Below, piece by piece: positions 17,776 through 52,354 of a DNA stretch of 55,595 bases. A program made the translations under genes and the position numbers. The notes beneath the pieces were generated by a model. It did not search any database, was not told the DNA's origin, and worked only from the letters and a program-made list of their open reading frames with translations. The stretch lies in the NCBI GenBank assembly GCA_963575745.1, contig CAUYUJ010000150.1:62001-117595 (forward strand). Reading direction: 5' to 3'. Numbering within the stretch: position 1 is the first letter of the stretch; each line of letters begins with the position of its first letter. Source of the DNA: Prorocentrum cordatum (Eukaryota).

Positions 17776-18545
17776 ATTCCCTACCTAGGCTCTGCCTAGA
17801 AGGGTTCTTACTCGGCGTGCTTAAAGGGCCGGGCAGTGCAACCCGCCCCGGGCGGTTCCCCCAGCATTCGCCCCGCGGTTCCCCCAGTTGCGCCCCCTTG
17901 GCTTAGCAGTGTTTATCTCATCTTAGCTAAGCCTATTTCATCTTAGCTTAGCTTAGCTTCATCTTAGCTCAGGTTTATTCCCTACCTAGGCTCTGCCTAG
18001 AAGCGTTCTTACCTTGCGTGTTTAAAGGGCGGGGCAGTGGAACCCGCCCCGAGCGGTTCCCCCGGCATCCCCTGGGAGCGGTTCCCCCATTCCTTCGGGG
18101 GCGTTAGCTTTAGCTTTAGCTTGAGTATTAGCTTTAGCTTTAGCTTCAGCTTAGCTGTAGCTTAGCTTTAGCTTAGCTGTAGCCTAGCTGGAGCTTTGCT
18201 CTTGCCTAGCTTTAGCTTAGCTTTAGCTTAGCTTTAGCTTCAGCTTAGATTTAGCTTAGCTTTAGCTCGGATTTTTGCTTAGCTTTAGCTTAGCTTTCGC
18301 TCAGTTTTAGCTTAGCTTTAGCTTAGATTTAGCTTAGCTTTAGCTTAGCTCCAGCTTAGCTTTAGCTTAGCTGCAGCTTAGCTTTAGCTTAGCCTTAGCT
18401 AAGCTTTAGCTAAGCTTTAGCTTCGCTTCAGCTTATATTCAGCTTTGCTTTAGCTTAGTTTTAGCTTAGCGTTAGCTTAGCTTTAGCTTAACTTTAGCTT
18501 AACTTTAACTAAGCTTTAACTGAGCTTTAGCTTAGCTTTACCTTT
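17776..18545. repeat. Two tandem copies (period 201) of a ~130-bp head, each followed by a (TTAGC/TTTAGC)n tract
   Basis: attccctacctaggctctgcctagaag...aacccgcccc..gcggttcccc occurs at 17776 and 17977. TTAGC-type tracts lie at ~17900-17970 and ~18104-18545. Confidence 0.9.
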
Positions 18546-19399
18546 ACTACGAATGCTGCTTTCCTAGGGGCTCTAACTCCTAGGTAAGGTAGGTCTGGGA
18601 TAATTTGTATTTAAACACGTGTGTGTATATATATACATGTATATGTATATGTGTGTGTGTGTATGTGTGCGCGACCCCTCCCGGCTGTCGTTAATGTTAC
18701 ATCAGTCCTTGAGCTCCTCATGCGTGCCATTGCTGATGATCCGCATTTTTTTCGTCCGCGCCGGCTCGCTTATCTTTCCGAACCGTCATTTCTCTGTTGT
18801 TTTCGCGCTGGAATCTCAGCAGAATCAGCTTGATTTGGGATCTGCGTAATTCTACATCTCAAGGATTCCCAATAATAGTTGAATTTGAATCAGCTGTAGA
18901 TTGTAATTGTGTCCCATTGAGAAATTGTTCGGGATCGGTTGGATCTGGGATCTGCTCAATTCTGAATAGGTTCGAATTCTACTACAGTTGGAATCCAATC
19001 GGGATCAGCTGTATCTGGGGTTCGGCCACGCCGACTTCGACCTTGATTAGATTTCAGCAGGAATCCATTCGGACACAGCCGTATCTAGGATCTGCCCCAT
19101 TCGGGATATATTCTACTTCGAGTCCACTAGGGATCATTGGAATCATATGGAACTGGGATTCGCAGAGCGGCTATGCCGCGTTTATCGTGGCAGCTTCCCT
19201 TGAAGCCCTGGACGCGCCTTTAATGACACGCTGCTGGCCGAAGAGAGGCTCCAGAAACAGCCGCGGCGTCATATGCCTTCTTAGAGCCCTCTTCGACCTA
19301 AAAATCGAGAGTCCCAGAAATTCCCCCCACCCCCCGCCAAAGGAGTACCGACCGAAGGTTTAGACGGACTTGGATCCGATGTTGTGTTTGTTTTGTTTT

Positions 19400-20580
19400 G
19401 GGGGGTTCCGACGTTCCAGGGCTGCCCAAGACGCCCCCCAAACCGCCCCAAGACGGCGCAAGTCGCCCCGAACACGCCCCCACGAAGGGCCAAGAGGGCC
19501 CCGAAACGGCCCACGAGGCGCCCAAAATGGCCCAAGAGAGCCCCAAGACGGCCCTCGAGACCGGCAGCAGGCCCCCAACAAACCCCCAAATGCACCCGAA
19601 AGTCCCAGAAAACGTCCCGAAAGGCTTCTAAACTGCCCCCAAGAGGCCCCAGGAGGCGTCCTGAAAGGCCCCACCAGTAGCTCGAACCTCGAAGCGCACG
19701 AAGGATCGCGCACCATAGCCGCTCCCCCGCTCATGAACCGAATCGAAGCGCCAATTAGTACGGCGACGGTCAGAAAGTCAATTCGTGTGTGTGTGTGTGT
19801 GATTATATATAATATAGAATATATTATAACATAGTATACTATAATATAATATAATATAGTATAAACTAATATACTATAATATAGTATGATACCATATAAC
19901 ATAACATAACATAATGTAATATACTATGATATATTATAGTCGAGTATAGTATAATATCATATAATATAACACAACATATTATAATACAATATAATATACC
20001 ATAATATAATATAACATATTAGAATATCATATACCATAATATACAACAACATAGTATAGCATAATATGATATGATGTAATACAATATAATATAATATATA
20101 GTATAATATAATATAAAGGAATATTATATAATATAGTATACTATAATATAGTATAATATAGTATATTATACTAGAATATACTATAATATATTGTAATATG
20201 TTATAATACAATACAACCCGTTACACTATAACATAATGTAATATAATATAGTATAGTATAATATAACATAATATAATACAATATCGTATAATATCATTTA
20301 ATATACTATAATATGCCAATATACAATATAACATAATATAATATAAATATATATAATAATATTATAATATAATATAATATAATATAATATAATATATATA
20401 ACCATACTATATAATATAGTATGGTATAGTGTAATAGATTATAATAGAATATAATATAATATAACACAATATAATAACACATAATATTATAATATAATAA
20501 TAATATAATATAAATATAATATTATATAATATATTATAATATATATAATATATAATATAGTATAATATAATATAATATAC

Positions 20581-20617
<37 letters not shown>

Positions 20618-21260
20618 AATAAATACATATATCCCTTGGGGGCAGGCCCCGGGCCCACAAACAGGTGCCCCGACCCCCCATGGCAGGACGGGGCGGCCGG
20701 GGAGGTCGAAAATAATCCAGGATGGCCTCCAGAGGCTCCCCAACACGGCCCAAACGGGTTCCGAGTCGCCCAAAAACCGTTCTTGGACGCCCAAGATAGG
20801 CCCAAGACGGCCCGAGAGGTCCCCCCAACGCACTCCACGACGCCTCAAGACGCCTTCCCAGAGCGCTCCAAGAGGCCGAACTCGGCAATTTTACGCAGGG
20901 TTTGGACAGATTTTGGCCTTCCAGCCTTTTCGGCTGCCCGACGTTCCAAGACGGCTCAATAGGCCCCCGAAAGCGCCCCAAGACGGCCCGAGAGGGCCCC
21001 CAGACGGCCCCAGAGGCGCCCAAGACAGCCCAAGAGGGGGGCCCAAGACGGCCCCAAGATGCGCCCAAAAGGGGGACCACGACTCTAAAATTCGACCCTT
21101 CCGCCTGAAGAGTGCCCCAGGAGGCCCCAAGACCTCCCAGGATACCCCCGAGAGGCACCCCGGAGACCCAAACAAGGCCTCAAGAGGTCACAAAACAGCC
21201 CCGAGGAGGCCCCACAACGATCCCAAAACGGTTACCGAGGAGCTGCGACGCCTGCCCTCA
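19400..21260. repeat. Degenerate ccccaagacggcc-type interspersed repeat (19400-19680 and 20700-21260) flanking an extremely AT-rich (TATAA)n/(TA)n tract (19800-20630)
   Basis: Repeated cccaagacggc / cccaagag / ccgacgttcca motifs occur in both arms; the AT microsatellite is directly visible. Confidence 0.85.
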
Positions 21261-21429
21261 TGACACTTCAAATCGGCTGCCTTCACGACGTCCCCGACAG
21301 GCCAACCACGAGATCCAAGCCAACACCCATGAGGCCTCTGACCCACCACCCAGGGCACGGTGGCGGGAGCAGGGACAACACTTTTGCACAGCACGTTCCG
21401 GCGGGAGCCTTCCGGAACACGCTGCAGGA

Positions 21430-21572
21430 GGAGGAAGATCAGGAGGAGAGAGAGAGAGAGAGAGAAAGAGAAAGAGAAGGTTGGAGTGGAAGGAGGAGGA
21501 GGGGGGCGAGAAGGAGGAGAGGTGGAGGAGGAGGAGGAGGAGGAAGAAGAGGAGCAGGAGGAGGCGGACGGG

Positions 21573-21627
<55 letters not shown>

Positions 21628-21737
21628 CATGCATGCATGCATGCATACATGCATGCATGCATGCATGCTTACATACATACATACATACATACGTACACAC
21701 ATACACAAAGATACGCATTTATAGTTATACACATTGC

Positions 21738-21770
<33 letters not shown>
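21430..21770. repeat. Compound microsatellite (GA)n, (GGA)n, (TA)n, (CATG)n, (TACA)n
   Basis: Directly visible. Confidence 0.9.
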
Positions 21771-21773
<3 letters not shown>

Positions 21774-22430
21774 CCGTGCACGAGGCCCGGGCCCCCGGTG
21801 CTCGGGGCCACTGGGGGGCAGTATAGTGAACCTGTTGGGTGGGCTGGGTTGTAAGGTCTTTGAAATGTAGTTGTGAGATAGTTGTAAGGTAGCTGCAACA
21901 TAGTTGCAAGTCTGTTAAGCGGTTGTAAGTTCAGGTGTCCCACGTAGCTATATGAGCAAGCCGCATAACATTTGCAGCAGTGGGCCAGCATTCGTCTTAC
22001 CCTATCTTGACTTAGGCCGAGTTGCAATTTCACGCAGCGATATTTTGTTGATGGCTGAACTAGGATTTGCCCAATGTTAACGGTAGAATTACACTTCACA
22101 ATTTTTTGTATTCAGATGGGGCCCGCATTGCGTGTTTCTGATTTTCAAACGTTGCCCACGGGGCAATTACGAATTGAATTTCTCACTTGCGTGAAGACGC
22201 ATCCGTCGCTTCTTTGTGTGCCTAGTGGCAACTGCACGCTCGACGAGCGACACCGCGATCAAATGTGGTCCGCGTTTGCAGCAATTGCATTATCCATACT
22301 GTGTCGCAATTCATTCTGTCGTTCATCATGCACGCATTCGTCGCAGCGCGTGGCATTATTCCGGGTCGCGCCACATGGTATATCAAGAAGAATGTTGCTG
22401 TGTCAGCATTGGGACTTGCAGTGACGATGT

Positions 22431-35730: not shown

Positions 35731-36892
35731 CTATACGGGCGTGCCCTCTGCAAGCAACTGTCCGCATTGCACGCGTGGAATTGTGAAAATGCATGGCGGA
35801 CATTTGCGATGGGCGGGGCGTCCGCGTGGCTGGTTGGAAAGGTTCGAGGACTTGCAAGGAGTGCAGGCGCCGTGGAGGCGGGTCAATCCTGATAGTGCCT
35901 CCCGTGTTCAAGTGGTGAGACATCGCGCGAGTTGCTACCTGCTTTCTTCTGCTCAGCAGCGCAAAAGACTTGCAGTCGAACGCATAGTGTCGCTCGCCTT
36001 GCGCCTCGCGCGTAGAGCATCATCAGTTCGGAAGCTAAAAATGCAGCGGCTGCACGTCAACACGCAAATGCTTGCAACTACTTGCGTTCAGTTAGCGCAA
36101 CTTATAAGTTTCCGAAACCACTTGCTAAGTCTGCGAATTCTTACAACTGCCCAAGATCACCACAGCATGGGGGGACTGGGGCCTCTGTGCAAAGATCATG
36201 TATGTCGGCCCGCGTGGGCGCCGGGGTAACCAACAGGGGTTTGAAACTTCTACATAACCAACGACAAACGTGACATTTACTTAAGTGGTTGTGATTTCGG
36301 CGTAACACTATGATCTTTGCCACCGAAAACCAACGAACCCTGGCAAAACAGGTTGATTTCGACCTACATGATTCTTTTCCCATGCATTTCATGAAAGTAG
36401 CGGGAAACTTTAAAAGTAAGTCCAAGGGCGCGCATCGGCAAGAAAACCTCGCATTCATTGCTCGCCGCGCTTGCAGCGGAACCAATTTCGGCAACCAACG
36501 TTTAAGAAACCTAAGCGCAGTGCAAAATCCAAACGTCACGCCGCGAAAAGACATTGGCAGTTCCGAGCGATCCGTAGGACAAAACACCATAGGTCGCCTC
36601 GAAACGCTCCGCGGGGGGCCTGAACACACTGGCGTGGCCAGAGTCGCGACCGCAAATCGGGAACACCAGTTGGACAAATCCGCTGCGCGATCAAATCCGA
36701 AGGTCGTGGCTGCCAACGATCCTTCGGAAAGTCGTGAGCGCATCAGCAGGGTTCGGGCACTTTCGCGTGCATCGCGGACAGCCGCGCCCATGGCGCCGCC
36801 GCCGCCGCGACCGCGCTCGCTCGCACCGCGGGCGGTCCGCGGGTAGCGCCATTAAGCGCCTCTGATGTCGCCGAAATGTTTCGGCTACGACG

Positions 36893-36914
36893 TCTGAGCC
36901 AAAATGGCAACGGA
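36893..36914 (-). other. Dinoflagellate spliced-leader relic (TCCGTTGCCATTTTGGCTCAGA)
   Basis: 19 of the first 20 nt match DinoSL DCCGTAGCCATTTTGGCTCAAG. A gccATGg start lies about 100 nt downstream at 36791. Confidence 0.85.
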
Positions 36915-37299
36915 TCCCCCCCCAAAAAAAAAGGAAAGAAGCCGAAAAACAAAAAAAGAGGGCGGGGGGGGAGGGGGGAGCAGCAGGGGCAGGCGGATGA
37001 GAAGAAGGAGAAATGAGAAGGGCGAGGGAACGACAGCGGCGCCGGGGACCAGGGGCGGCGGAGACGGGGCGGAACAGAAGGGAAGCAGCAGGCGAAGAGA
37101 CTCGCAAGCTCGGGCCCCCGCGCTGCCGTTGCGGCGCAAATGCCGCGGGGGGCTGGGGGCCCACCTGCTGTCCAAGGCCATGGAGGCCCAGCGACGCCCC
37201 CGCCCTTTCCTTCTTCTCTTCAGGCTGAGGCGCAGGAAACGAAGCAGAAGGGGGAGAGCAAGGAGAGTACGCGGGGAGCAGAGAAGAGCGAGGGGGTGA

Positions 37300-37620
37300 T
37301 TGAGGAAGCGAGAAGACAGCAACGAGAGCGCGGGAAGAGAGAAGAGAGAGAGAGAGAGAGGAAGAGAGGGAAGGAGGAAATGAGACACAGAGAGAGAGAG
37401 AGAGAAAAAAAAAGGGATGGAGGGGGAGAGAGAGGGAGGGAGAGGGAGAGAGAGAGAGAGAGAGGGAGACGGAGAGAGAGAGAGAGAGAGAGAGAAACAC
37501 AAAAAGTAGAGAGAGGGAGGGGGATGGGAGGGAGAAAGAGAGTGAGAGAGAGAGAGAGAGAAAGAAAAAGAGAGAGAGAGAGAGACAGACAGGCAGACAG
37601 ACAGTCAGAGACAGAGTGAG
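37300..37620. repeat. (GA)n / polypurine tract
   Basis: Directly visible. Confidence 0.9.
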
Positions 37621-38634
37621 CACAGGACCAGGCTCCGAGATCGCCATTTCATCGGATATCTGCCTGCTCGTTTCCCTCGGCAGGCCCTGCAACTTGCAAC
37701 GTGGCGCGGGCGAGTCTACCGAGCCAAAGGGGTCGGGGCTTGGGGGGATCTGTCCGTGCCCCCTCATCTATGTACCCCTCTCCCACCCACCCTACCCCCT
37801 TCCCCCTATGGGCCCTCCATCGGCCCAAATCTCGCCAACTCGAGAAGCGCGTGCACGTCTTCCGCCACTCCTCCGCATCATTCCAATTCCTTCTCTGTCC
37901 ACTCGTTCTGTGTCCCCCCACCCCCCCTGGCCCTGCCCTCCTCTGGCTCCTCTCCCCTTGGCCCGGCGACGCGCCCGTGAACGGCGTCGCGCCCTCGCCA
38001 GGCGTGCGCGACGGCCAAAATGGCCAAGCTGCTTGGCTACCCGCTGGAGCGGCCAGGCGACGGCGGGCGCGCGAAGCTGGGGAGGAGGTGGAAGGGCATT
38101 CGAATACGACGCAGAGGGCGAGGAAAAGGAAAAGAGCTGAGGGGGGGAACGAGGAGTGGAGTGAAGGGAGGAGGCAGGAACAGGAAACAAATCAAGTCTG
38201 AAGGAGGAGGAGGCCGAGGCAGAGGAGAAGACAGTGGAGGGGGTGAGCAGGAAGAGAAGCAAGGCGGAGAAGGAGGAAAGGGAGGATGGCAAGAGGATGC
38301 GAAGGTCAAGATGAGAACGAGACAGACGACCACTTGCGAGCCAATGTCCTTTGTCTGTGACGGATGGACGGATCAGTAGATCGTGTATTCCACTGCGGCC
38401 TAAGTGAGGAGGGCGACAACCCGTTCCTCACTTGTGCCGCGAGAGCGGAGGCTACGAGCTAGAGGGGTGAAGAGGAAAAGGAGAAGCGACGGGCAGGGCG
38501 GGCCGCCTCCTCAGTCCTCCATCCTACTCCTGTCTCCTCACTCCTGATTCCTCCACCTCCTTCATCCCCTCACCCCATCCATATTTAACTCCTCTCGCTC
38601 CTTCCATCCTCACCCCTCGCGCTGAGGCTCAAGC

Positions 38635-41600
38635 TCACGAGGGCCGCGACTTCTTCAGCGCCCAACCATCGAACTCGGAGAGCGCCATCTGCCGCTTGCC
38701 AGGCGGCGGCGGAGGCGCTGCGCCGCCGCTGTTGAAAACGTTCACCGTCACCCCAGCCGCCGCCGCCGGGACCGTCACGCTGACAAGGAGGTGCGGGCCC
38801 TGCACCTTGCCACTCCAGCTCCAAGCATCGTGGCGCCGGTAGAAGCTGACAGCCATGTCGGGCGGCAACTGGTTCTCGCGCAGACTCTCGCCGCCGAGGC
38901 CACTAGCGGTGCCCCACACCGTCCTTACCTTTACCTCGTCGAGCGGCGCCTCGGACACGTCGGAGGCTCCGTCCTTGATGTCTGGTGGCTGCTCGGCTGC
39001 TGAGGCAGAGCTGGCGGCTGCTCGGCTGGTGGCTGCTGGCTGGTGGCGCCCTGCTGGTGGCTGCTCGGCTGGTGAGCTGGTGGCTGCTCGGCTGGTAAAC
39101 TGGTGGCTGCTGAGCTGGTGGCTGCTCGGCTGCTCTGCTCGTGGCTGCTGAGCTGGTGGCTGCTCGGCTGCTGGGCTGGCGCCCGCACTGACCCTTTTGG
39201 GAAGCTGCCACTCCGCCCACTCGTACATCCCCATGATTCGCATCAACGGGCAGAGGGCCCTGCCCACGGACGACACCGCCATGCTGTTGCCAACAGCAGC
39301 GTGCACGGCGCCAGGCGGCAGGGTCGAGAGGAGGCTGTCGGGCCTGAAGCCCATGGCGGAGGCCTTCTCTCCCGCCGTGAGGTACCTCCCAGCCCCTGCT
39401 ACTCTGCCTGGAGCGCTGCCTACCACCCATAAGTACTCGTTCCGTGTTGTTAGACACGGAAGAGCGCCAGGCACCAAGATCGGGCCGTAGGTCTTCTTGG
39501 GATCGCGGGTGAGGTCCGCTACTGCAAGCTCGCACCCCGTCTTGTTCTTCAGTTCTGTGAAGAGCTCGTTGTAGGCCTGCGCAGGCCAAGTGTCCATTTC
39601 AACAATCAGAAAACTTCCTCCATGATCCCCCATCTCCGCCTCCCTCCTCTTCCTCGTCCCCCTCCTTCCTTATTTATGTATCCGCTCCACTTCCCGCCTC
39701 CGACCGCCTCCTCCTATGTCATCTTCCATCCGCTTTGCATCCAAGCTCCACTCCCCCCCCCTCCACATCCTAACCACCTACTGGCGCGCCTCGACGTTGG
39801 CGAGAAGGCCCGGCGCGGTTGGCAGCGGACCCGCCGCCAAGTCGCCCTTCACCTCCAGGATGTCAACCAAGCTGACTGGATCCTCAGGGCGCAACGGCCT
39901 CAGCCACGAGCCCTCGCGCTGCAGAACGGACGATGCCTCTGGAGCGCAGGAGGCCCTCTCCAAGATACTCTTGCGGATGCCAACGATGAAGACCCGGCTC
40001 CTGTGGCACAGCACGCAGTCCCCGATGGCGTCCACTTGGTGCCAGTTGACCTCGAAGTCCTCGCTCGGAAAGCAAGCGCAGGGAACGAGAGCAGGGGGGG
40101 ATGACGAGGAAGGGGGTGACCCCTCGGCGTTTTGGCGGGCCTTTGCACCACCCCCAAGGGGGGCAGGCAATGGCCGAGGAAAGGATGGAAACCCTGCAGG
40201 GCGCCACAGGCCTCAAAACGGAGGTGGAGAAAAACCTCACAACACTGGGCACATAATGTCCGACTCCCTTTCGGTCCGGCAACTTCTCAGAGAGCCAGGG
40301 TAAAAGCTCGGAGGTCAAGAATGAGGCCTTGCCGTGCTGGCGCCTCGCGATGCCCTGGACGTTCTCCAGGAGGAACCAGCGCAGGCGGTTGCCCGCCAGC
40401 CACTCCAAGAGCTCTTTCATCTTGCAATACACCTACGGCTTAAAGCAAACAAAAAAGGAGGAGAGAAGAGAAAGGAGCGGAGGAAGGAAGACTTGCAGGG
40501 AAGGAAGAGGGGGGGAGGAGGAGAAGGAGGAGGGTGAGGAAGAGGGAGGGGGAGGAGAAGGAGGAGGGGGGAGAAGGAGGAGGAGGAGGAGGAGGAGGAG
40601 GAGGAGGAGGAGGAGGAAGGGCGCCCCCCATCATCAGCTACAAGGCCCAGGCAATGACAACAAGGCCCCGCCACCTCAGCCCCTCGACTCGAGACGTCCA
40701 AGTCGGTCGCCGTTGTCGCCATCCATCTGTCGCGCCCTCGTCCCTCGTCCCCTTGTCAACCCTCTCCCCCCTCCTCTCGTCATCCGTTCGATCCACCACG
40801 ACATCCTCGCACTCTGTCTCCTCTAGCTTGCTACTCCAAACGAGGCCCAATGACCCCCGCCGAGCCCGCGCGGGGCCCTCCAAGACCCAGCGGTATCAAA
40901 GCCCCCCCACAGACGACCTGACAATCCTCAAGGCCCCCCTCCCCCGGCAACAGAGCACCTGGGCTCTCTCGTCCTCCATGCCAGCCTTCTTGCCCAAGAA
41001 GCTCCAGGGCGGGCATGGGAACCCGCAGACGAAACCCTCGCTGGGGACGAAACCCGCGGGCCGCCCTGCCGGCCCCTCCACCAGGCCGTTCCTGATCCTC
41101 AAGTTCAGGATGTCGCCAGCGACCTGGCGGCGCGGAGGGAGGAGCCCCGCCCCAGCGGCCAGAGGGAGGATCAGGGGGAGAGGGGGATGAGAAGGAGGTC
41201 GAGGAGAAGGTGGCGGAGGAAGTGCAGGAGGAGAGGGTGGGCGATGATGAGGAGGAGGAGGAGGATAGAGTAAGGGGCGAGCGAGGGACGGAGGGATCTC
41301 CACTCCACCCCCTTCCCTCCCTTCCAACCTCCCTCCTAGGAACGTCATCGATCCATTATCCTCCTCCTCCTTGCCCGCCGTCCTCTGACCCGAGTGAGGC
41401 CTCATGAGGTGTCTCCAGGATCCTCATCCATGGCGTCTGCAGGATCCTCACCCATGCGGTCTTCAGGAGACAATTCGTGACTAGCGGTGTCGAGCTCACT
41501 GGGCTCATCGTCGAGGTCGGTCCAGCTGGGCGGGCTGGGCGGTCCAGGTGGCGGTAGCACGAACCGCGGCACGACGTAAAGTGGGACGCAGTCCCAGTTA

Positions 41601-44600
41601 AACACGGATTCCACGAGTTCTACCCAGCGCCCCTGAGATAAGTCGAAGCCCGCCATAATGATATCTCGAGCCGAGATCTCACATGCCTCGTTGATTGCGG
41701 AGCCCCACGCCCCCTGAGAGGACCGAGGAGGAGTGGAACGAGAGCCGAGCTCAGGGTTATCACCGAGGAGGATGGAGGAGAGGATCAAGGATACAGCACC
41801 ACAAACCGTAAGCTAATGCCACGCTCCAGGGTGATGACCGAATCGAATGTTGCCGGCGTGGCATGCCCCAAGGCGGACCTGGGGCCTCAAAAAAACTCTG
41901 CCTGGGAACAATCGACCTACTGCTCGACAGGCCCATCCCAAGGGGCCATCTCTCCGTCGACCTCCATTCCCAAGTTGCCGTCAACGCGGCGAGCCGAGAG
42001 GGGGGCAATGGGAAGCAAGGTTTCTGACAGAAGCGCGAGCGCAAATCCCTTCGACTGCTCGTCCGCATCATCGATAGTTCTACCAGCGATGCTCAGCAGC
42101 GCGCCTCCATCGAGGCGGAGCAATTGAATCTTAGCCCTTGCCATCGAGTAGGTATGTTTCTGCCCTATGTGCCTCTGGTCCCCCTGCGCTCGCCTTTCAG
42201 GAAATCGAAACTCGGCGGTGGACCCACCCACGATGGCATAACGGCTGTCGCCCATTGACGAAGGCTGGCTCTTGAGCTGTCGAGCGCCAGCACAAAGAGC
42301 ACGAACTGTATTAGGAGCTGGATACCCACTACCAGCTACAAGCGGCAACAATCGAAAACTGAAACCAGCGTCGAACAAAGGCCAGACGAGAGATAAGCAG
42401 AGCGTCAGGGCCACAAAGTGGAGGATAGAAGATGAGGCGGATCGAGCACGGTGAGAAGGGGAGACAGAAGGAGATGGAGAGGTCATTGCACGAGGAGGCA
42501 GCAGGATAGAAAGGGAGGCGCGCCAGCAGCAGCAGAAGGAGCATCTTGACAAGGAAAGGCTGGATGATGCGGAAAGGTCAGGCAAGCAGAGACGAGGGAA
42601 GAGGAGGGAAGGGCGAAGGAGGGAGAGAGGCTGGCCAGACGCGTAGGAGTAGAAGGGCAGGAGGAAGCGGGGGTGGAGGCGGAGGAACAGGAGGCGGAGA
42701 GAGGGACGGGAGTCATGATATCCTCATCGCCCCCCTCTGTACCCCTGCCCTCCTCATTGCATTCCCTTGCTCCCTCTGCCTTCCCTTCGTCGTCGTCCTC
42801 CTCCCCCATGGTATATCCTCCCTCTCTTCTTCTTCCTCCCCATCCTCCCCATCCCCTCTCTTTCTCTCTATCTCTCGCCACTCACCCTCCATCATACTGC
42901 GTCTCCCTCCTGATATCCACTCCTCGGCTGGATGGGGAGGGGGAGAGGAGACTGCTGAGCTGCGCGGGCCGCGGGCCCGTCGAGCGAGCGGGCGGCCTGG
43001 TGCGCGCCTCAATCACCGATCGCCGAGCTCCGCGAGCTTGTCCCACCAAGTCTCGTACGGCGAGCCCTTCACGGCGCTGTGCGCCTCCATGACGCTCGCC
43101 ACGCTCATGCGACAGGTGGACAATTCGCCCTGCCACCCCGCGCAGAACCCCCACCGCATGCCCTGGCACGGGACAGGCCGAAAAGTGAGGTACACGAAGC
43201 CGGCGGGCAAGACGGCCAACGAACCTTCGCGGATGACCATGGCGAAGTTGCCCTGCTCGCGCGCCAACTGAAGGAGCCCTGCACCAGGAAGGCTCTTCAA
43301 GAAGCCAACGGTCTCGGCCAGGGAGTGCTCCTGCTTCGCCTTGACGCCCACCACCACTTCTTCTCCGCCAGTGACGACCCTGACCTCGCTGAGGCCATAC
43401 GAGGAGGGGCCCGCAGAACAGTGCCCGGCTGGGATCGTATAGATTTGAACTCCGAAGATGTGCTTGTGGAGAGCCTGGTCCTTCGGCGTCACCGGCACGA
43501 AGGCGCTTCGGAAGATAGTCTGGCCATTCGCCTCGTCTTTCACCAACCCCCTCAGCATCATGAGGATTCCAGGCTGAGACACTGCCCCAAAGGCGGGCGC
43601 CGCGCCATCGCTCTCCCAGGACATCACCTTTTCCTTGCACCATTTGGCCAGCGGCTTCCAGTCAGCTGAGGAAAGCAGGGGACCCAGTGAGGCCTTGACG
43701 TCGATGAGGCAAGCGTTCTGGAAGTCGAGGTTGCACAACGAGTTCATCACTCCTACAGGTGCGTCGTGGATCGTAGCTTTTACCATCGTCAGCGCTGGGC
43801 GGTAGTCCTGCGTCTCGCCAATGTCCAGAATCTCTGCCCTCTCTCCAGCCTTGCGTTTCTTGGAAGAGGCACCGCCGCTGGCGGCCTTCGCGAGAAGAGA
43901 CCGACAATTCTGCAACATCTTCGCTGTCAAGACCTGGTGGCAACAATCTTTTTTCTGTTCGGCAGCGATCTTCTTGAAGGCCTCTTTCACACCAGCGACA
44001 GACAAGTCCCAAGCCGGCGAATCGATGTGAGCACAAAGCTTCGAGATTCTGGCTTTGACATTATTGATCTCATCCTGCGCGGCTGTGGAGAGGGCCTCAA
44101 GCTTGTCTTTGAAAGGTTTCCATGGCTCTCCATCTAAATCCGTCGCTGAAATCTTAGATTTCATGTATTCGAGCACGTTGATTCCTTCCGATACCTGGTT
44201 CTCCAAGGCGCTCACCAAGGAACTCTGAAGACGATCCGCCAGCTGCAAGGTACCGAGGCGGACTGTGACTGGATTCACCTTGGCCGCCGCAGCATCCTTG
44301 GCCAAATTTTTTGCCTCGATGTCCTCGAGCGCCTCCATGTGGGCCAAGACCTTCTCCTTCTCCGCCCTCGTAGTCTGATCCTCGATGAAGCTGCCGAGCG
44401 CGCCGTGAAGCTGAGGGGCACAGTCCAGCGTGCCTCTGTACACGCTCTCCAGGAAATCCTCAGGAACAGCAACGTGATCGCGATCCTCCCCTTGGCCGTG
44501 CGACGCCCTCTGGCTCTCCTGGACCGCCGTCAACGCAGCGCCAACGTTCGACGCCATGCTCTGCAAGGCCGTGTCCAGCTCCGTACCAGTGAGGCTCGAC

Positions 44601-47600
44601 GAGCTGCTCTTCGTCAATGACGCCGTCGTCCCCTTCGTCAGCACAGCGTCGTCGATCTCGCCCTGGTACTCCGCGATGAGGTACCCTCCTGGGCGCCGCG
44701 GGTCGGGCTTCACCGTGTACTCACGGCTCATGCACCGCCGACGGAACTCCAGCTGCTGGTCTTTCGGGTTGGTAAACCCCTCCAGCGCCAAGTCCCGCCT
44801 CACCAGGGTCCACGGCTCCCAGTGGGTGCGCTCCCGATGTTGATCCTCGACCTTGGTCTCCGTCGTCGTCACAAGCGTGAGCATCTCGTGCGCTTCCTCG
44901 GGAGGCATGGCAAAGCTGGAGGTGGAGGGGCAGGAACGGGAGGAGGGGGGAGGCGGGAGAAGGGGGAGGGGAGGAGGGAACGAGGGGAAGGGAGGACGGG
45001 GGGAGAGGAGGGGGGAGAGGAGAGGGAGGGAGAAGGGCGAGAGCAAGAGGAGAGGAGACAAGGCAAGAGAGAGGAGGACGCGGGGGAGTGAAAGGTGGGA
45101 AAGGGGGTGCCAGGTGAACGAGCTACGGTGAGGGTGAAAGGGGGTGCGGGGGTGCGGGGGCGCCAGGTGAACTACGACGTGAACGAGCTCAAGGTGGGAA
45201 AGGGGTGCCAGGCGCCCAGGAGTCGGGGGCAGCATAGTGGTGGTCGCTTTCCTCCTCCTCCTCCTTGTCCTGCCTCCTCCCTCGCCGGCCTCCTGCAGAT
45301 TCTACTCCTCCTCCTCCTCCTCCTCCTCCTCCCCCTCATCCTCTTCCTCCTGCTTGCGCCTTTCCCTCCTCCTCCTCCCCCTCACCCCTCGCGCTTCGCA
45401 TCCATCCTCATCCTCATCGTCCTCGCTAGCTTTTCCTTGTCATCCCCATCCCCCCTCTTCCCTCAGCCTCCCCTCACAACCTCATCATCCCATCTCCTCT
45501 TCCTCGCCCTCCTACTCCCTTTACAACGCCATCCGTTGTCCGGCACGGCTGTCTCCCGATGGTCGATGTACCACTGCTGCTGCTCCTTCGCGCTCTTCTC
45601 GGTCCACCAGGGCTTCAGCTGCTTGTTCCGCTTGAACCTGCGCAGCAACGTGCGGCTGTTCCCATAGCATTTCTCGCACAGATCGCGAGCGCATTTGCGA
45701 GAGTCGGCGTCCCGCACGCGCTCGTCCTCTGCGAGCTCCAGGCCGCACTTCTGGCACGTGAAGGCGCCGCTGCAGCTGCCTCCTGCGCCCTCGCCAACGG
45801 GCTCCACGCCATCGAAGTGGATGAACACAGGCGTCGCAGTCCCTCCAACTGGCGTCTTCGGTCCAGATGGAGGCTGAACTGGTGGCCCTTGATGCTGCTG
45901 AACTGGTGGCTGCTGAACTGGTGGCTGCTGATCTGGTGGCTGCTGATCTGGAAGCTGCTGAGGCTGAGGACCTGGTGGCTGCTGAACTGGTGGCTGCTGT
46001 GGCTGCTGAGCTGGCGGCTGCTGATCTGGTTGCTCGGCCGGTGGCTGCTGATCTGCGGGCTGATGACCTGGTTGCTGCTGATGATCTGGCGGCTGCTGAG
46101 CACGTGGCTGCTGATCTGGTGGCTGCCCGCCTGGTGGCTGCTGACCTGGTTGCTGCTGAACTGGTGGCTGCTGATCTGGCGTTTTCTGATTTGGTGGCTG
46201 CTGAACTGGTGGCTGCTGAGCTGGTGGCGGCTTCTGAGCTGGCGGCTGCTCGGCTGGCGGCTGCTCGGCTGGTGGCTGCTGTGGCTGCTGAACTGGTGGC
46301 TGCTCGGCCGGTGGCTGCTGATCTGCGAGCTGCTGACCTGGTTGCTGCTGAACTGGTGGCTGCTGATCTGGCGGCTGCTGACCTGATGGCTGCCCGCCTG
46401 GTGGCTGCTGACCAGGTGGCTGCTGAACTGGTGGCTGCTTGGCGGAGCTGGCGGCTGCTGAGCCGGTGGCTGCCGAGCACGGGGCTGCTGGCGACGCAGC
46501 GGCGGCCTAGTGGAAGCGCCCATCCTCCCTCTCCCCCCCGCGGAGGAGGAGTGGAGGAGGAGGCGGAGGAGAGGAGGAGGGAGGGAGGAGGGAGGGGGGA
46601 GGAGGAGGAGGAGAAGGAGGAGGAGGTGGAGGAGGAGGAAGAAGAGGAGGATGAGGAGGGGGCGGGGGCAGAAGGATCAGGAGGTGGAGGAGGAACAAGA
46701 GCAGGAGGAGGAGGAGGGGAACAATGCGAGCGCGAGAAGGGATGGGAATGGGAATGCAGGAGAAGGAAGATTCATCATCATTCTAGTGTTTCCCCTGGTG
46801 CCCTCCCCTCCTCATCCTCCGCCTCTTTCGGCTCTCCATCCTACTCCTCCTTCTCCTCCCCATTGTCCTCCTGCTCCTTATCCTGCTCCTCCTCCTCCTC
46901 CTCCCTGTCCTCCTCCTTCTCCTCCCCTCAAACCCTCTACTTCCTTCCTCTCCCCTTCTCCTCAAACCCGTGGCCTTCTTCTCGGCGTGCAACACCTTGA
47001 AGCACGACGAGATGCCCTGCCCGCTGGGCACGGGCGGCGGGGGCTTCTTGCCAGGAGCCATTCCACAGGCCGCCGCTCCGCCGCTCGTCACTGGGCGCCG
47101 CCGGGCGCCCGAAGCCAAAATGGCTGTGGACGGGTGGAGGGAGGAGCGGAGGAGGAGGGGCCCGCGCCCGCGCCCAGGACCCCTTTGACCAAATCAAACC
47201 AAGTGACCTGGGGCCAAGAGCGGAGACGGTGACCAGGGACCCCGAACATATTGGATGCAGCGAAGCCCTTGCCCACAAACCAGGCATGAACAGCTGAGCA
47301 AGGCCCCTCCCCCCTGCCCACTAACCAGGCATGAAACCTAGACGACGTATCAGCGCGAGCCAGGCCGCTGGAGGCAAAACGAGATCCCCCCACGTGCTGA
47401 TCCTGGCTGATCCCCACACACCCCTGCCTCCACCTCGCGCCGTCCAATTCGACGCCGTCCTGATTCCTGTCGTTCCTCTTCAGCTCCTCACTCTTAGCTA
47501 CCCCCTTCATCCATTCGTAGTCCTCCCTGAGGCCACCCCTGTGCGCCCGATCGGTTTATCCACCCGTCCTCCTTCTCCTGACCTCCTACTCGTCATCCTT

Positions 47601-48754
47601 CTCGAGGTCCCTCAACCTCCTGATGACCCTCCTCTTGCTGCTGCTCCTCCATCTCCTCCATCTGCTCCTCCTCCACCCTTCCTCCTCCCCCTGGTGCTCC
47701 CCCTCCAACGGCGCCTGCCGGCCGGGGCCGGCCTTCCCGTAGTGCAGGTGGCACTTCTTCGTCCCCATCGACGAGTGGAGCAAGTTGGCAGCCGGGCGCA
47801 GGTCGTCCTGGCTGGGGAGAGGATGGGGGGCGGAAAGAAGGGCGGCCAGGATGAGGTGGATGAACCAATACACAGACACGTACGCGATGCATTGCAGACA
47901 GAAGCCGCGGCGATTATAGGAGGGCCAGGAAAAGAGAAGGATGGGGCAAGGGCGAGGAGGGAGGTGGAGAAGGAGGGTGAAAAGAGGGGGAGACGGAGGA
48001 GGGCAGGATGCGGAGGAGGCCACGAATATTCTGGATACCGCAACAAACAGTCAGCAGGACCAAACGATCAACAGGAGGCTATACAGGAGCGTCAGCAAGA
48101 CAAGGCGCTTTGCATGGCAAGCGTCATTACGCGGGAAGCAGCTGAAGAAAACACAAGAAGAACGCTGTCCGAGATGTCGTACACGTTCACAGCGCACCAC
48201 GGCCACTGCGCCTCCAGCGCCGCCCTCTCAGGGGCGCCGATGCCTCCCCTGCCCGAGGTCGCGCGCGCACTGAGAGCCCACCTCGCTCTGACTCTGACTC
48301 TGCATTTTCAAAATCCACGGGTTCATTCCAGGATATCCGATCGAAACCGGGCCCGTTGGGCCCCCCCCAGGACAACGGATCGGGCCCTGAAAACAAAAGA
48401 AAAGCTGGATCATCACTACATTGTGAATCCGCCCGCCTCTGCATCGATACATGTGCGACGAACGCAGACAAGGGGCTACCAATGATGCATATATCGAGAG
48501 GTTGCTCGCGATTGAAAGCTGGGCTGCCTGTCTCCAAAGACCAGAATGCGTCGAGTAGAAGTGCGATTCCCACGAAAGCTTGCAACCTACGAACACAGCA
48601 CCCCCCCCGTCCAACCAGCACACAACAGCGTCACGCGCATGGGCGTGAGCGGGCGCCCGAAGTCGGGGTACACGGAGCGAGCAACCCAGGGGGCGTCCTT
48701 GCGGACGCAACAGTCTGGAAGAAGAACGGCGTCGGGCCCTCGGGCCAAGGGCAT
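38635..48754 (-). CDS. C5 cytosine-specific DNA methyltransferase, 7 exons: 48754-48616, 48243-48170, 47807-47733, 41123-40959, 40432-40277, 40059-39790, 39576-38635 (1821 nt, 606 aa)
   Basis: All six joins are in frame, with GT, GA, GC, GT, GA, GC donors and AG acceptors, from a gccgccATG start. The spliced protein has motif I RVTLLCAG|IGAPERA, II VNVYDIS|DD, III K|VAGDIL, IV GFPCPPWSFLG (catalytic PC), V DERAQ|V, VI WFLLENVQGI, VIII CHRSRVFIVG, a TRD-type PCLTT, IX RYLTAGEKASAMGF and X VGNSMAV, followed by a QQPP repeat and a short C-terminal extension. Confidence 0.88.
41402..42256 (-). CDS. Possible small spliced hypothetical gene inside DNMT intron 3
   Basis: Two protein-like minus-strand ORF segments, MGDSRYAIVGGSTAEFRFPE...GFALALLSETLLP and GAWGSAINEACEISARDIIMAGFDLSQGRWVELVESVFNWDCVPLYVVPRF plus an acidic tail. 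The splice junction was not resolved. Confidence 0.4.
43013..47061 (-). CDS. Nested ~978-aa protein, exons 47061-46975, 46506-45541, 44896-43013: Q/P repeat, CxxC-x23-CxxC-type zinc finger, helical middle region, degenerate JmjC/cupin-like C-terminus
   Basis: In-frame joins are AAG|GC..TAG|GCC and CCG|GA..GAG|GAA (the second is less certain). The protein has CQKC...CEKC, a 628-codon open last exon, and a C-terminal EVRVVTGGEEVVVGV...AMVIREGSLAVLPAGFVYLTF...GMRWGF that resembles the beta-strand pattern of a double-stranded beta-helix. Confidence 0.75.
45860..46480 (-). repeat. Coding minisatellite, ~15-bp unit cagcagccacca(gtt/gat/gcc) = QQPPx
   Basis: Directly visible. The same repeat family occurs at ~38985-39180 and ~51110-51315. 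Confidence 0.95.
47109..47130 (-). other. Degenerate spliced-leader relic (TCCACAGCCATTTTGGCTTCGG) about 50 nt upstream of the nested gene's ATG
   Basis: 17/22 identity to DinoSL with an exact 13-nt core AGCCATTTTGGCT, on the correct strand and in the expected position. Confidence 0.7.
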
Positions 48755-49059
48755 GGCGGCACGCGGCCGTGGGCTGGCGGCGCCCACGGCCCAAAAGGGG
48801 CCCGCCCAGCGGTGGAGGGGGCGGGCCAGACGCCCCTCAGCCACAAGGGCTGCAGGCGTTCAAGAGGCCTCAACAGGCCAGCAACGCCAGGCCCATCCAC
48901 GACGACCCCCTTCCAATGCGCTCGTGGGAACGCGCTCTTTCGAAGAAGCCCTGAAAGAAATCCACCCCTGCTGAGACATATCTCCAGGAGTGCACTCGAC
49001 GTCCCAAGATCAATGCGAAACAACCTGGCAAAGACCAGGAACACCAAACGGAAGATGAG

Positions 49060-49107
<48 letters not shown>

Positions 49108-49449
49108 GAGAGAGGCGCGACGATAAAAGAGCGAGGGGGAGGAGAAAGAGAGATGGGAGAGAGGGGGCGCGCACCAGGTGGGGAGGAGAAAGAGAGAGGG
49201 AAGAGAGAGGGAAGAGAGAGAGAGGGGATATGTCGAGAGAGAGAGAGAGAGAAGGATAGCAGGTGGCTTCACTGACTGTTCCTCGACCCTTCCTCGATCC
49301 TCACTCCTCGACGCGCTGCTCATAGACCGTCCGAGTCTTCTTCAGGTGCCGCAAGTGCCCTCGCGCCTGAACCTGTGATTGCCAACGCCTGAAACCGCAA
49401 GAAGGACTCAACTTGAAATCCCCAAATCCTCGCCCTCACAGCGCCTCGG

Positions 49450-50867: not shown

Positions 50868-52354
50868 TCAATCCTCCGCGAAGATCTCCCGAAGCTCCTG
50901 CCTGAGCGAACAGTCGGCGACATCGCTGGGCGCTTCGTCAGCGGCTTGCGATGTCTCCGTGGGCGACGGCGGCAGCGCGGTCCAGCCCTCCGCGGTTTTG
51001 ACAACGGCAACGGGCCTGGGCAACGGCGGCGTCTTCGGGACCCCAGGCAAGCGGAACCTCGGCTCGTTGAACACATCATCACGCGGAGGCTGCGGAGACT
51101 TCGGCTGCGCAGCACGTGGCTGCTGATCTGGTGACTGCCCGCCTGTGGGCTGCTGACCTGGTTGCTGCTGAACTGGTGGCTGCTGATCTGGCGTGTCGGC
51201 TGGCGGCTGCTCGGCTGGTGGCTGCTGTGGCTGATGAACTGGTGGCTGCTCGGCCGGTGGCTGCTGATCTGCGAGCAGCTGACCTGGTTGCTGCTGAACT
51301 GGTGGCTGCTGAACCGTCGGCCCCTGCATTTCGGAGACGTCCTCGATTGTGAAGGGCGTGATGTCGAACGCAGGCGACGTACCCTCCGCGACCCTGGAGA
51401 CGCACACGAGCCGGCCACTCTTCGCGATTTTCCTAGGAGGGGAAACAGCATCGGGATTTGGATGGAACGCTTCCAACGCGGCCTCCGTGATCGCTGGCAA
51501 GGTGCCCGACCCCACGTCGACGACTTTGGAGTTCGCGATGGCGGTCGGCAGCGGCGACCTCGAGGCTCCAGGGGCGGATGAGTGCATCAACGAACTTCCT
51601 CTCATCCACCATCTCCTCCACCTCCTCCTCCTCCGCCTTCTCCCCCTTAGCCCATCCCCCCTCCTCGTACTACTAGCCCCTCCCCTCCTTCTCCTCATCC
51701 TCCTCGTCCTACTCCTCCTCCTCGTCCATCCAACTCCTCCTTCTCCTCCTCCTCATCCTGCTCATCCTCCTTGTCCTCGTCGTCCTCCTCCGCCTTCCCT
51801 CATCTTCCTGCTGCGATTGCACGCCCAACGTGGAAACGACCCAAAGACCCAAGGTGACCTGGTCGGGCTGCTCCGCGCCATCTTGCTGAATGACGGGCTA
51901 CCCTTCAGATCCCCCTGAGAGCAGGGCAGAGGCGCGGGGCGGAGGTCACCCGCGCTGTCGTCGCCCTGAGGGGCAGGCCATCGGTCGCGTGCTCAGCCAA
52001 CCCTGACCCTGCCCCCACCTCCCACCCCCACTGTCAAAGGAAGGACAGCGGGTGCGAGGGCAAAGCTGACCGAACACGGACCACCCCCAGGACAGTTACA
52101 ATGGGCCATCAACCTACATCCCCTTGCCCCTGCCCTTTGCCCTCCGTGGGATGCTCCTTCTTCCAGGGGCTCATGTCGCTCAACGCCTGGCTGTCCTCTT
52201 CGCCCTGGGTGTCGTGCAGCGGCGGCGGCGGGTAGCTGCCCGCGGCGACGTCCGAACCCGAAGGCGACGGCACCTCGGCGCGCAGACGCTTGTCCGCGGG
52301 CGACCTGCCGAGCTGGCCCAGCGCCGGGCGCTTGTCGCCAGAAGACGTGGACAT
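50868..52354 (-). CDS. Low-complexity hypothetical protein (~320 aa) with QQPP repeat; exons 52354-~52145, 51914-51859, 51558-50868
   Basis: ctcgccATG start (MSTSSGDKRPALG...). The join AG|GTcacc..AG|GTcgcc is in frame (SPT-R-SPLPTAIANSK). The first donor is uncertain. Confidence 0.6.

What the first reader, a model, noticed from the sequence alone, without database searches (positions are those of the whole stretch)
41124..47732. Same-strand nested gene(s) inside the DNMT intron, the larger one carrying its own spliced-leader relic
Seen in sequence: intron 3 contains a 3-exon ~978-aa gene (47061-43013) and possibly a second small gene (~42256-41402) on the same strand as the host, and a DinoSL-like 22-mer sits about 50 nt upstream of the nested ATG. 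Established: dinoflagellate genes recycled through mRNA retain SL relics. Inference: an SL-capped mRNA was retro-inserted into the DNMT intron and later gained introns. Making DNMT mRNA now requires skipping the nested exons and their 3' ends, which could make the two products mutually exclusive, a possible splicing/trans-splicing switch.
Basis: partly seen in the sequence, partly recalled or inferred. Interest (0 to 1): 0.85.

Follow-up and report, generated by a model that had tools for sequence, protein, structure and literature searches.

The report
Ordinary nested genes in dinoflagellate intron
A DNA-methyltransferase gene of the dinoflagellate Prorocentrum cordatum really does carry at least one conserved same-strand gene and a spliced-leader relic inside its 6.6-kb third intron, but this layout is already known to be common in dinoflagellates, so it is an ordinary example and not a new mechanism.

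Summary
The window is Prorocentrum cordatum nuclear DNA. The host gene is real: seven minus-strand exons (48754-38638) give an open 605-codon C5 DNA-methyltransferase model that aligns end to end with PF00145 proteins. The DinoSL-like 22-mer is real too: 17/22, with a 13/13 core at 47125-47113, 47 nt before the ATG at 47061. The "3-exon 978-aa gene" is not supported as drawn. The conserved unit is a single intronless ORF (44884/44908-43013, 623-631 aa). Its three family members begin at or next to that Met. The upstream ORFs (47061-45463) are more likely a separate, unverified unit that owns the SL relic. Much of that stretch is a dispersed 15-nt minisatellite. The small "gene" at 42255-41402 has no support. 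No RNA data could be obtained. Genes nested in introns make up 6.5-8.4% of Polarella and about 25% of Amphidinium genes, and relic DinoSLs are routine. P. cordatum introns average 4.7 kb. Verdict: real, but a new member of a known kind, of low interest.

The parts
48616..48754 (-). DNMT exon 1 (ATG 48754; ends inside motif I, ...LLCA + first base of Gly; GT donor)
   Evidence: Sequence. Open joined model. Its N-terminal part (..APWV....RVTLLCA) parallels P0019 and P0047.
48170..48243 (-). DNMT exon 2 (rest of motif I and motif II region, GIGAPERAALEAQW...NVYDIS; AG|G acceptor, GA donor)
   Evidence: tblastn of P0019 residues 32-57 maps to 48244-48167 at 69% identity, E 4.7e-6. In all, 5 of 26 long homologues hit this exon at E<1.
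47733..47807 (-). DNMT exon 3 (25 codons, ends ...LHYGK; AG|G acceptor, GC donor at 47732)
   Evidence: tblastn of P0019 residues 59-82 maps to 47801-47730 (E 0.28 alone). The alignment through this exon is gapless.
41124..47732 (-). DNMT intron 3, 6609 nt, holding units A, B and C
   Evidence: Boundaries fixed by colinearity with P0019. GC donor and AG|G acceptor read. The P. cordatum mean intron is 4709 bp.
47109..47130 (-). DinoSL-like 22-mer (relic), core AGCCATTTTGGCT at 47125-47113, directly after a pyrimidine tract plus AG
45463..47061 (-). Unit A (hypothetical). ORF piece 47061-46968 (GC3 0.94), a hairpin-type intron of about 46967-46488, then ORF 46487-45463. That ORF contains the 15-nt minisatellite (45894-46490) and a Cys-rich zinc-ribbon-like segment (45879-45526, GC3 0.79). 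Its own stop is at 45465-45463.
   Evidence: Pfam Zn_ribbon_2 scored E 0.0024, below the cut-off. No homologue search was possible.
43013..44908 (-). Unit B: conserved intronless gene. CDS 44884-43013 (623 aa), or from ATG 44908 (631 aa). Candidate SL acceptors at 44917/16 (pyrimidine tract 0.90) and 44898/97 (AG|G).
41402..42255 (-). Unit C: two ORFs (42255-41917 and 41812-41402) with no support as a gene
40959..41123 (-). DNMT exon 4 (motif IV, ..GFPCPPWS..)
   Evidence: 12 of 26 long homologues hit it by tblastn at E<1.
40277..40432 (-). DNMT exon 5 (motif VI, ..LLENV..)
39790..40059 (-). DNMT exon 6 (motif VIII, ..RSRVFIVG..)
38638..39576 (-). DNMT exon 7 (motifs IX-X, ..GNSMAV.., an in-frame minisatellite stretch, a conserved C-terminal tail, stop 38640-38638)

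Best explanation
This is an ordinary dinoflagellate nested-gene locus. A seven-exon, DNMT-only C5 cytosine methyltransferase gene of Prorocentrum cordatum (48754-38638, minus strand) has a 6609-nt third intron. That intron contains at least one independent same-strand gene, unit B: an intronless 623-631-aa protein found only in P. cordatum and one other sampled organism, of unknown function, with an invariant KKRKAG stretch that looks like a nuclear localisation signal. Upstream of it lies a second, unverified coding unit (unit A), whose 5' leader carries a degraded DinoSL relic. Inferred mechanism: the region is transcribed in one direction. The nested units mature by SL trans-splicing at AGs that follow pyrimidine tracts (47125/24; 44917/16 or 44898/97) and by 3' end formation. 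DNMT mRNA forms when the 47732 donor is cis-spliced to the 41124 acceptor. Inferred origin: unit A, and perhaps the intronless unit B, entered the intron as retro-copied SL-capped mRNA. Shown here: the exon-intron structure, the conservation of unit B, and the SL relic. Not shown: any transcript.
For: Species. A paralogue named Prorocentrum cordatum has 93% identity.

DNMT. 66 relatives of exon 7 were found. 6 of 6 long ones tested are PF00145. P0019 maps colinearly on both sides of the intron. The joined seven-exon model has 1818 nt and 0 internal stops. Its donors are GT, GA, GC, GT, GA, GC and 6 of 6 acceptors are AG|G. It has 157/394 identities with P0019 over model residues 34-454 against residues 19-432 of 444, with no gap at the exon 3/4 joint. 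These splice types match the species statistics of GT 24.7%, GC 51.4%, GA 23.8% and AGG 79.7%.

Unit B. There are 3 family members at 100, 93 and 54% identity over about 99% of the length. P0004 starts at the aligned Met. GC3 is 0.76 and the ORF runs uninterrupted for 1.87 kb. The ORF stretch upstream of 44908 has GC2 above GC3, so it is not coding-like.

SL relic.. Only 4 AGs in the whole intron follow a tract of 80% or more pyrimidine. Two of them sit exactly in front of the relic and in front of unit B's ATG.

Literature, from passages read. Nested genes are 6.5-8.4% of Polarella glacialis genes, confirmed there by full-length transcripts, and relic DinoSLs are described (PMC7245778). 25.2% of Amphidinium carterae genes are nested (PMC12584245). 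P. cordatum introns are long and multi-coding-unit gene models exist (PMC10666404).
Against: No transcript evidence of any kind was obtained. No single DNMT exon of the window reached Pfam significance on its own. The PDB sequence search found nothing. The joined model could not be sent to Pfam. A search for a public protein of 264 aa or more containing exon 7 found none, so the seven-exon model rests on homology and splice logic alone.

Unit A has a good GT donor (45524) shortly before its stop. It is followed by the same purine-then-pyrimidine spacer seen in true introns. It could therefore splice onward, to unit B or elsewhere. However, the same type of spacer also follows unit B's verified stop.

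The unit A body is not intronless as drawn, unit B has no relic, and no poly(A) remnant was found. The retro-copy origin is therefore only partly marked.
Confidence: 0.7

Rival explanations
1. Units A and B are one 3-exon ~978-aa retro-inserted gene that later gained two introns. Its processing and DNMT splicing are mutually exclusive and act as a regulated switch.
For: The spacer between A and B (45526-44897) has the same purine-rich 5' half and pyrimidine-rich 3' half as the verified DNMT intron 4. An in-frame join is possible with a GA donor after 45541 and the AG|G acceptor at 44898/97 (my reading). The two P. cordatum models of unit B are 5'-partial and begin exactly at that acceptor.
Against: P0004 (636 aa) starts with the Met aligned to 44884 and has no N-terminal extension. 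Neither P. cordatum model includes upstream exons. The best donor (GT at 45524) is out of frame. Unit A has its own stop at 45465-45463. About 600 nt of 'exon 2' is a 15-nt minisatellite also present at 38982-39174 and 51088-51321, and in the required frame it has GC3 of 0.50. The same spacer type follows unit B's genuine stop, so it does not mark introns specifically. No RNA data exist for a switch.
Confidence: 0.15
2. The DNMT is dead. An old DNMT gene was broken by insertions, and the two halves (48754-47733 and 41123-38638) are no longer spliced together. Units A-C are then simply tandem genes lying between two relics.
For: No transcript evidence was obtained. No public protein of 264 aa or more containing exon 7 was found. 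A 6.6-kb intron full of competing acceptors is a hard splice.
Against: The joined model has no stop or frameshift over 605 codons. All six intron phases fit. Motif-like stretches I, IV, VI, VIII and X are kept (motif names recalled, sequences). The break coincides to the nucleotide with a GC donor and an AG|G acceptor. 6.6 kb is close to the species' mean intron length of 4.7 kb.
Confidence: 0.1
3. Assembly chimera. The 6.6 kb was placed between DNMT exons 3 and 4 by mis-assembly of repeats.
For: The region is rich in low-complexity purine/pyrimidine tracts and minisatellites, which can mislead assemblers.
Against: There are no Ns in the window. The flanks carry proper splice signals at exactly the positions homology requires. 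Nothing else points to a breakpoint.
Confidence: 0.03

Closest known systems
Genes nested in introns of multi-exon dinoflagellate genes (Polarella glacialis, PMC7245778; Amphidinium carterae, PMC12584245; passages read)
   Same: One or several genes lie wholly inside a long intron of a host gene in a unidirectional gene array. In Polarella this was confirmed by full-length transcripts. In Amphidinium, nested genes are often more highly expressed than their hosts.
   Different: This example is in P. cordatum, the host is a DNMT, and no transcripts were seen here. I did not find this particular locus described.
Relic DinoSL in recycled (retroposed) dinoflagellate genes, as described in PMC7245778, which cites the original report. 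The attribution of that report to Slamovits and Keeling 2008 is recalled, not read.
   Same: An SL-derived sequence sits in the 5' leader, starting at the SL's internal AG (AG|CCATTTTGGCT), a short distance before the ATG.
   Different: It is degraded at both ends (17/22). The unit it precedes is unverified and as drawn contains an intron. No poly(A) trace was found.
Exon-rich, DNMT-only cytosine methyltransferase genes of dinoflagellates (de Mendoza et al. 2018, PMC5890265; passages read)
   Same: A multi-exon gene about 10 kb long, head-to-tail with its neighbours. The protein has no known domain besides the DNMT domain. 6 of 6 long relatives tested match PF00145.
   Different: The subfamily (Dnmt5, Dnmt6 or other) was not determined. 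It is not the intronless retrotransposon-borne type. No reverse transcriptase or any other Pfam domain was found in the window's ORFs of 180 aa or more, 86 of 103 of which were scanned.
Multi-coding-unit (polycistron-like) gene models of P. cordatum (PMC10666404; passages read)
   Same: Several complete coding units on one strand, separated by spacers or introns, and thought to be resolved by DinoSL trans-splicing.
   Different: There the units are copies of one gene (HSP70, RuBisCO). Here unrelated units sit inside an intron of a different gene.

Membership tests
C5 cytosine DNA methyltransferase (Pfam PF00145) | Significant similarity to family members over the whole catalytic domain | tested here: met
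   The exon 7 piece finds 66 relatives. 6 of 6 long ones are PF00145, with E from 2.5e-16 to 4.3e-25. The joined model aligns with P0019 over 394 columns at 157 identities.
C5 cytosine DNA methyltransferase (Pfam PF00145) | Direct match of the window's own protein to the family HMM | tested here: inconclusive
   The single exon-bearing ORFs of exons 5-7 scanned (and upstream ORFs that overlap exons 1-3 mostly out of frame) gave no Pfam hit at E<=0.01. The joined model could not be submitted, because joined sequences may not be typed.
C5 cytosine DNA methyltransferase (Pfam PF00145) | Catalytic motifs: I (GxG), IV (PC), VI (ENV), VIII (RxR), X (GN). Motif definitions are recalled. | tested here: met
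   CAGIG across the exon 1/2 joint, GFPCPPWS, LLENV, RSRVF and GNSMAV are seen. The relatives carry the same PCPPWS-type motif IV.
Nested (intronic) gene | The host intron is defined on both sides and the nested ORF lies wholly within it | tested here: met
   The intron is 47732-41124. Unit B is 44908-43013.
Nested (intronic) gene | The nested unit has a transcript of its own, and the host mRNA skips it | not testable with these tools
   No RNA run was listed. No genome is held. Metagenome scans found nothing.
DinoSL-relic retrogene | An SL-derived sequence in the 5' leader, more than chance would give | tested here: met
   17/22 with a 13/13 core. 3 core 11-mers in the window against 0.08 expected, and 0 of 100 shuffles reached 3.
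DinoSL-relic retrogene | Intronless body and a poly(A) or target-site trace | tested here: not met
   Unit A as drawn has an intron, a hairpin with 109-nt arms. The only A-rich 12-mer on the minus strand between 36000 and 49500 lies inside unit B's coding sequence. Unit B is intronless but has no relic.
JmjC / cupin (considered for unit B) | Match to a family HMM or fold, and the HxD/E...H metal site (motif recalled) | tested here: not met
   There is only an ESM-Atlas feature lead at 0.87-0.89, below the tool's 0.9 line. Pfam gave none, or Cupin_1 at E 0.28 for P0004. The PDB profile search gave none. AlphaFold models were too poor to search (pLDDT 37.9 and 34.2). By eye, none of the invariant His residues has D/E at +2.

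The most novel reading that the evidence does not exclude
Maturation of the DNMT mRNA competes with SL trans-splicing at the strong pyrimidine-tract acceptors of the nested units. DNA-methyltransferase dosage would then be set inversely to output of the nested genes. Unit B, a nuclear-looking protein with a weak cupin/JmjC-like signal, would work in the same DNA- or chromatin-modification pathway as its host.
Probability: 0.05. Interest if true: 0.6.

Novelty: new member of a known kind. Interest (0 to 1): 0.2.

Why it matters
It matters little beyond annotation. The work gives a clean, nucleotide-level example of a nested-gene locus in P. cordatum. It supplies a seven-exon DNMT model; my one search for a public protein of 264 aa or more containing exon 7 found none. 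It corrects the proposed 978-aa fusion to a 623-631-aa gene so far seen only in P. cordatum and one other sampled organism. The general question remains open: how do cis-splicing across an intron and trans-splicing of genes inside it coexist in dinoflagellates? This locus, with a short host gene and well-defined acceptors, would be a convenient test case once long-read cDNA is mapped.

Tried and rejected
Whole genome of the window: none is held.

RNA runs: none was listed for 39000-48900, and the single search was then spent. Read laying was therefore never used.

Earlier findings of this scan: nothing relevant.

Paralogues inside the window: tblastn of 14 ORF pieces gave self-hits only.

Search for a public protein of 264 aa or more containing DNMT exon 7: none. 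The 'near' and 'shorter' length ranges were not searched.

PDB sequence searches with exon 7, the unit C ORF and the unit B profile: 0 hits each.

Profile search for more unit B relatives: the same 3 proteins.

Metagenome scans with the unit B profile and with a 30-nt stretch of its 5' end: nothing.

Structure prediction of unit B, whole and C-terminal 214 aa: pLDDT 37.9 and 34.2. No fold search was run, because matches would be meaningless.

ESM-Atlas: a JmjC/cupin lead below threshold for unit B. Nothing usable for the unit A C-terminus.

Rfam on the whole window: 0 matches, so there is no SL RNA gene.

Pfam on 86 of the window's 103 ORFs of 180 aa or more, plus a few shorter pieces: only low-complexity sub-threshold hits.

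Cluster look-up: the database was switched off.

Ideas rejected. The ORFs at 42255-41402 are the DNMT N-terminus: rejected, because homologues map the N-terminus to 48.7-47.7 kb. The motif-I-like read-through after exon 1 (about 48615-48500) is a real exon: rejected, because no homologue hit it at E<1.

In one search a few weak hits (E 0.27-0.88) fell inside the intron, at 44681-44749, 44137-44078, 47141-47034, 47173-47391 and 42968-43162. They are not colinear and I treat them as noise.
Full report
WHAT THE WINDOW IS. The window has 57-70% G+C over most of its length and contains no N. The long minus-strand ORF 43013-45301 found three proteins in the 5.8-billion-protein collection. One is the window's own model (P0002, 627 aa, 100%). 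One is a 93%-identical protein named 'unnamed protein product, partial [Prorocentrum cordatum]' (P0003). One is a 54%-identical 636-aa protein from a 2088-bp Logan contig (P0004). The DNA is therefore nuclear DNA of the dinoflagellate P. cordatum. No whole genome is held for it. Nothing below rests on transcripts.

THE HOST GENE AND ITS INTRON. Stop-to-stop ORFs on the minus strand show DNMT-like pieces at 41.1-38.6 kb and at 48.8-47.7 kb. On their own these pieces match neither Pfam nor PDB sequences. A full HMMER search with 150 residues of the last exon found 66 relatives. 6 of the 6 long ones I scanned are PF00145 DNA_methylase; two short fragments gave no hit. I ran tblastn of all 66 against the window and printed the 26 that are 280 aa or longer. 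P0019 (444 aa) maps colinearly:
- residues 32-57 to 48244-48167 (69% identity, E 4.7e-6)
- residues 59-82 to 47801-47730
- residues 98-130 to 41051-40953
- residues 129-185 to 40432-40274
- residues 198-266 to 40008-39793
- residues 299-404 to 39516-39199.
5 of the 26 hit the 48.2-kb exon and 12 of the 26 hit the motif-IV exon at E<1. A few weak, non-colinear hits fell inside the intron and look like noise.

Reading the sequence, I placed seven exons: 48754-48616, 48243-48170, 47807-47733, 41123-40959, 40432-40277, 40059-39790 and 39576-38638. Joined in a script, they give 1818 nt with no internal stop. The donors are GT, GA, GC, GT, GA, GC, and 6 of 6 acceptors are AG followed by G. The local alignment with P0019 has 157/394 identities, covering model residues 34-454 against residues 19-432 of 444. 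It has no gap at the exon 2/3 and 3/4 joints. The splice types are those reported for this species: GT 24.7%, GC 51.4%, GA 23.8% and AGG acceptors 79.7% (PMC10666404, passages). At 6609 nt it is unremarkable in a genome whose mean intron is 4709 nt. The C-terminal tail beyond an in-frame minisatellite is still alignable with P0008, so the last exon is read through to its stop.

WHAT LIES IN THE INTRON. Unit B is the only part with proven conservation. Three family members align over the whole length, with 54% identity to the distant one. A profile search found no more. P0004 begins with the Met that aligns with the ATG at 44884. Both P. cordatum models begin at 44896, the base after an AG (coordinates). 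The ORF stretch upstream of the alternative ATG at 44908 is a pyrimidine tract with GC2 above GC3, so it is not coding-like. In the whole intron only four AGs follow a tract of 80% or more pyrimidine. One (44917/16) lies 8 nt before ATG 44908. Another (47125/24) is the AG of the SL relic. Unit B is therefore best read as an intronless gene of 623-631 aa with its own start.

Unit B's function is unknown. It has no Pfam family and no PDB relative. The structure models are unusable (pLDDT 37.9 and 34.2). The only lead is a sub-threshold language-model resemblance to JmjC/cupin proteins (0.87-0.89), which the invariant histidines do not back up. An invariant KKRKAG stretch suggests a nuclear protein. 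That is my inference.

UNIT A. The ATG at 47061 opens a 94-nt piece with GC3 of 0.94. It is followed by a GT donor and a roughly 480-nt spacer whose two halves form a 109-nt, 71%-complementary inverted repeat. Then comes the ORF 46506-45463. About 600 nt of that ORF is a 15-nt minisatellite of 39.5 copies. The same minisatellite recurs in the same orientation at 38982-39174, inside DNMT exon 7, and at 51088-51321. In the frame the model needs it has GC3 of 0.50, whereas another frame has 0.93-1.0. The last 118 codons before a GT donor at 45524 look coding (GC3 0.79). They hold a CxxC...CxxC segment with a sub-threshold zinc-ribbon match (E 0.0024). The ORF has its own stop at 45465-45463. The GT donor is out of frame with unit B's acceptor, and an in-frame join needs a GA donor after 45541. 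Unit A is therefore a plausible but unverified separate gene.

UNIT C. The ORFs at 42255-41917 and 41812-41402 have background-level GC3 (0.63-0.66) and no family match. I give this unit no weight.

THE SPLICED-LEADER RELIC. The stretch 47130-47109 matches the DinoSL consensus at 17 of 22 positions, with 13 contiguous. The 11-mer core occurs three times in the window, all on the minus strand (47124-47114, 38024-38014, 36908-36898), against 0.08 expected. 0 of 100 shuffles reached three. The copy at 36913-36893 is nearly complete, with 3 mismatches in 21. The relic at 47125 starts at the SL's internal AG, right after a pyrimidine tract, and ends 47 nt before the ATG of unit A. That is the arrangement described for recycled, retro-copied dinoflagellate mRNAs (passage in PMC7245778). 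It belongs to unit A, not to the conserved gene. No poly(A) trace was found, and no Rfam family, including SL RNA, matches the window.

SPACERS. Every spacer in the locus starts purine-rich and ends pyrimidine-rich. This holds for true introns such as DNMT intron 4 and equally for the stretch after unit B's genuine stop. The pattern therefore cannot decide whether the A-to-B spacer is an intron.

COMPARISON WITH WHAT IS KNOWN. Nested genes are a documented, frequent feature of dinoflagellate genomes. [quoted passage not shown] In Amphidinium carterae, 25.2% of genes are nested, with expression on average 2.07 times that of the host (PMC12584245). The P. cordatum genome paper reports long introns rich in inverted-repeat 'introner' elements. 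It also reports gene models holding several coding units thought to be resolved by DinoSL trans-splicing (PMC10666404). Exon-rich, DNMT-only methyltransferase genes in head-to-tail arrays are described for Symbiodinium and other dinoflagellates (PMC5890265). For all four papers I read search listings and passages found by term, not whole texts or supplements. Supplementary gene tables of the P. cordatum paper might show how this locus was annotated. I did not open them.

VERDICT. The gene model inside the intron is wrong in its main point. The conserved gene is a single exon of 623-631 aa, and the relic belongs to a different, unverified unit. The proposed splicing switch is an untested inference that would apply to any nested gene. 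The locus is a new member of a well-known kind, and I score interest at 0.2.

Noticed in passing
window 45894-46490, 38982-39174, 51088-51321: A 15-nt minisatellite (unit GCTGCTGAGCTGGTG on the plus strand) occurs three times in the same orientation. One array lies in frame inside the last DNMT exon. The tail beyond that array is still conserved with homologue P0008, so the array appears to be translated there.
   Followed up: partly
window 36500-49400, minus strand: Every spacer begins purine-rich (GGA/GAG runs) and ends pyrimidine-rich. This holds both for introns and for stretches after stop codons. In the unit A intron the two halves form a 109-nt imperfect hairpin (46557-46665 / 46855-46963). 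This may be the 'introner element' type reported for this genome.
   Followed up: partly
window 36893-36913 and 38014-38040, minus strand: Two more DinoSL relics lie downstream of the DNMT, each right after a pyrimidine tract. The one at 36913 is nearly full length (3 mismatches in 21) and is followed by a second, degraded CGTAGCC...TTTCGGC copy. The one near 38040-38014 looks like two partial copies. No clear ORF follows either.
   Followed up: partly
window 38641-38700, minus strand (DNMT C-terminus), and the C-termini of P0007, P0008 and P0019: The DNMT and several relatives end in a Q-x-x-L/I-x-x-F-(F/G/D) stretch followed by basic residues. This resembles a PCNA-interacting (PIP) box. The motif is recalled and was not tested.
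   Followed up: no
window 48500-48615, minus strand (start of DNMT intron 1): Reading on past the exon 1 donor gives ..CAGWTGG.. and, after a one-base shift in a run of eight G, a stretch that by eye resembles the motif I-II region of DNMTs. No homologue hit it by tblastn at E<1. It could be chance or a decayed duplicate exon.
   Followed up: partly
window 18001-22000: An island of low G+C (0.42-0.47) sits in a window that is otherwise 0.57-0.70 G+C. It was not examined.
   Followed up: no
window 49064-49252: A long (AG)n/(CT)n microsatellite of about 95 copies lies 300-500 nt upstream of the DNMT start codon.
   Followed up: no
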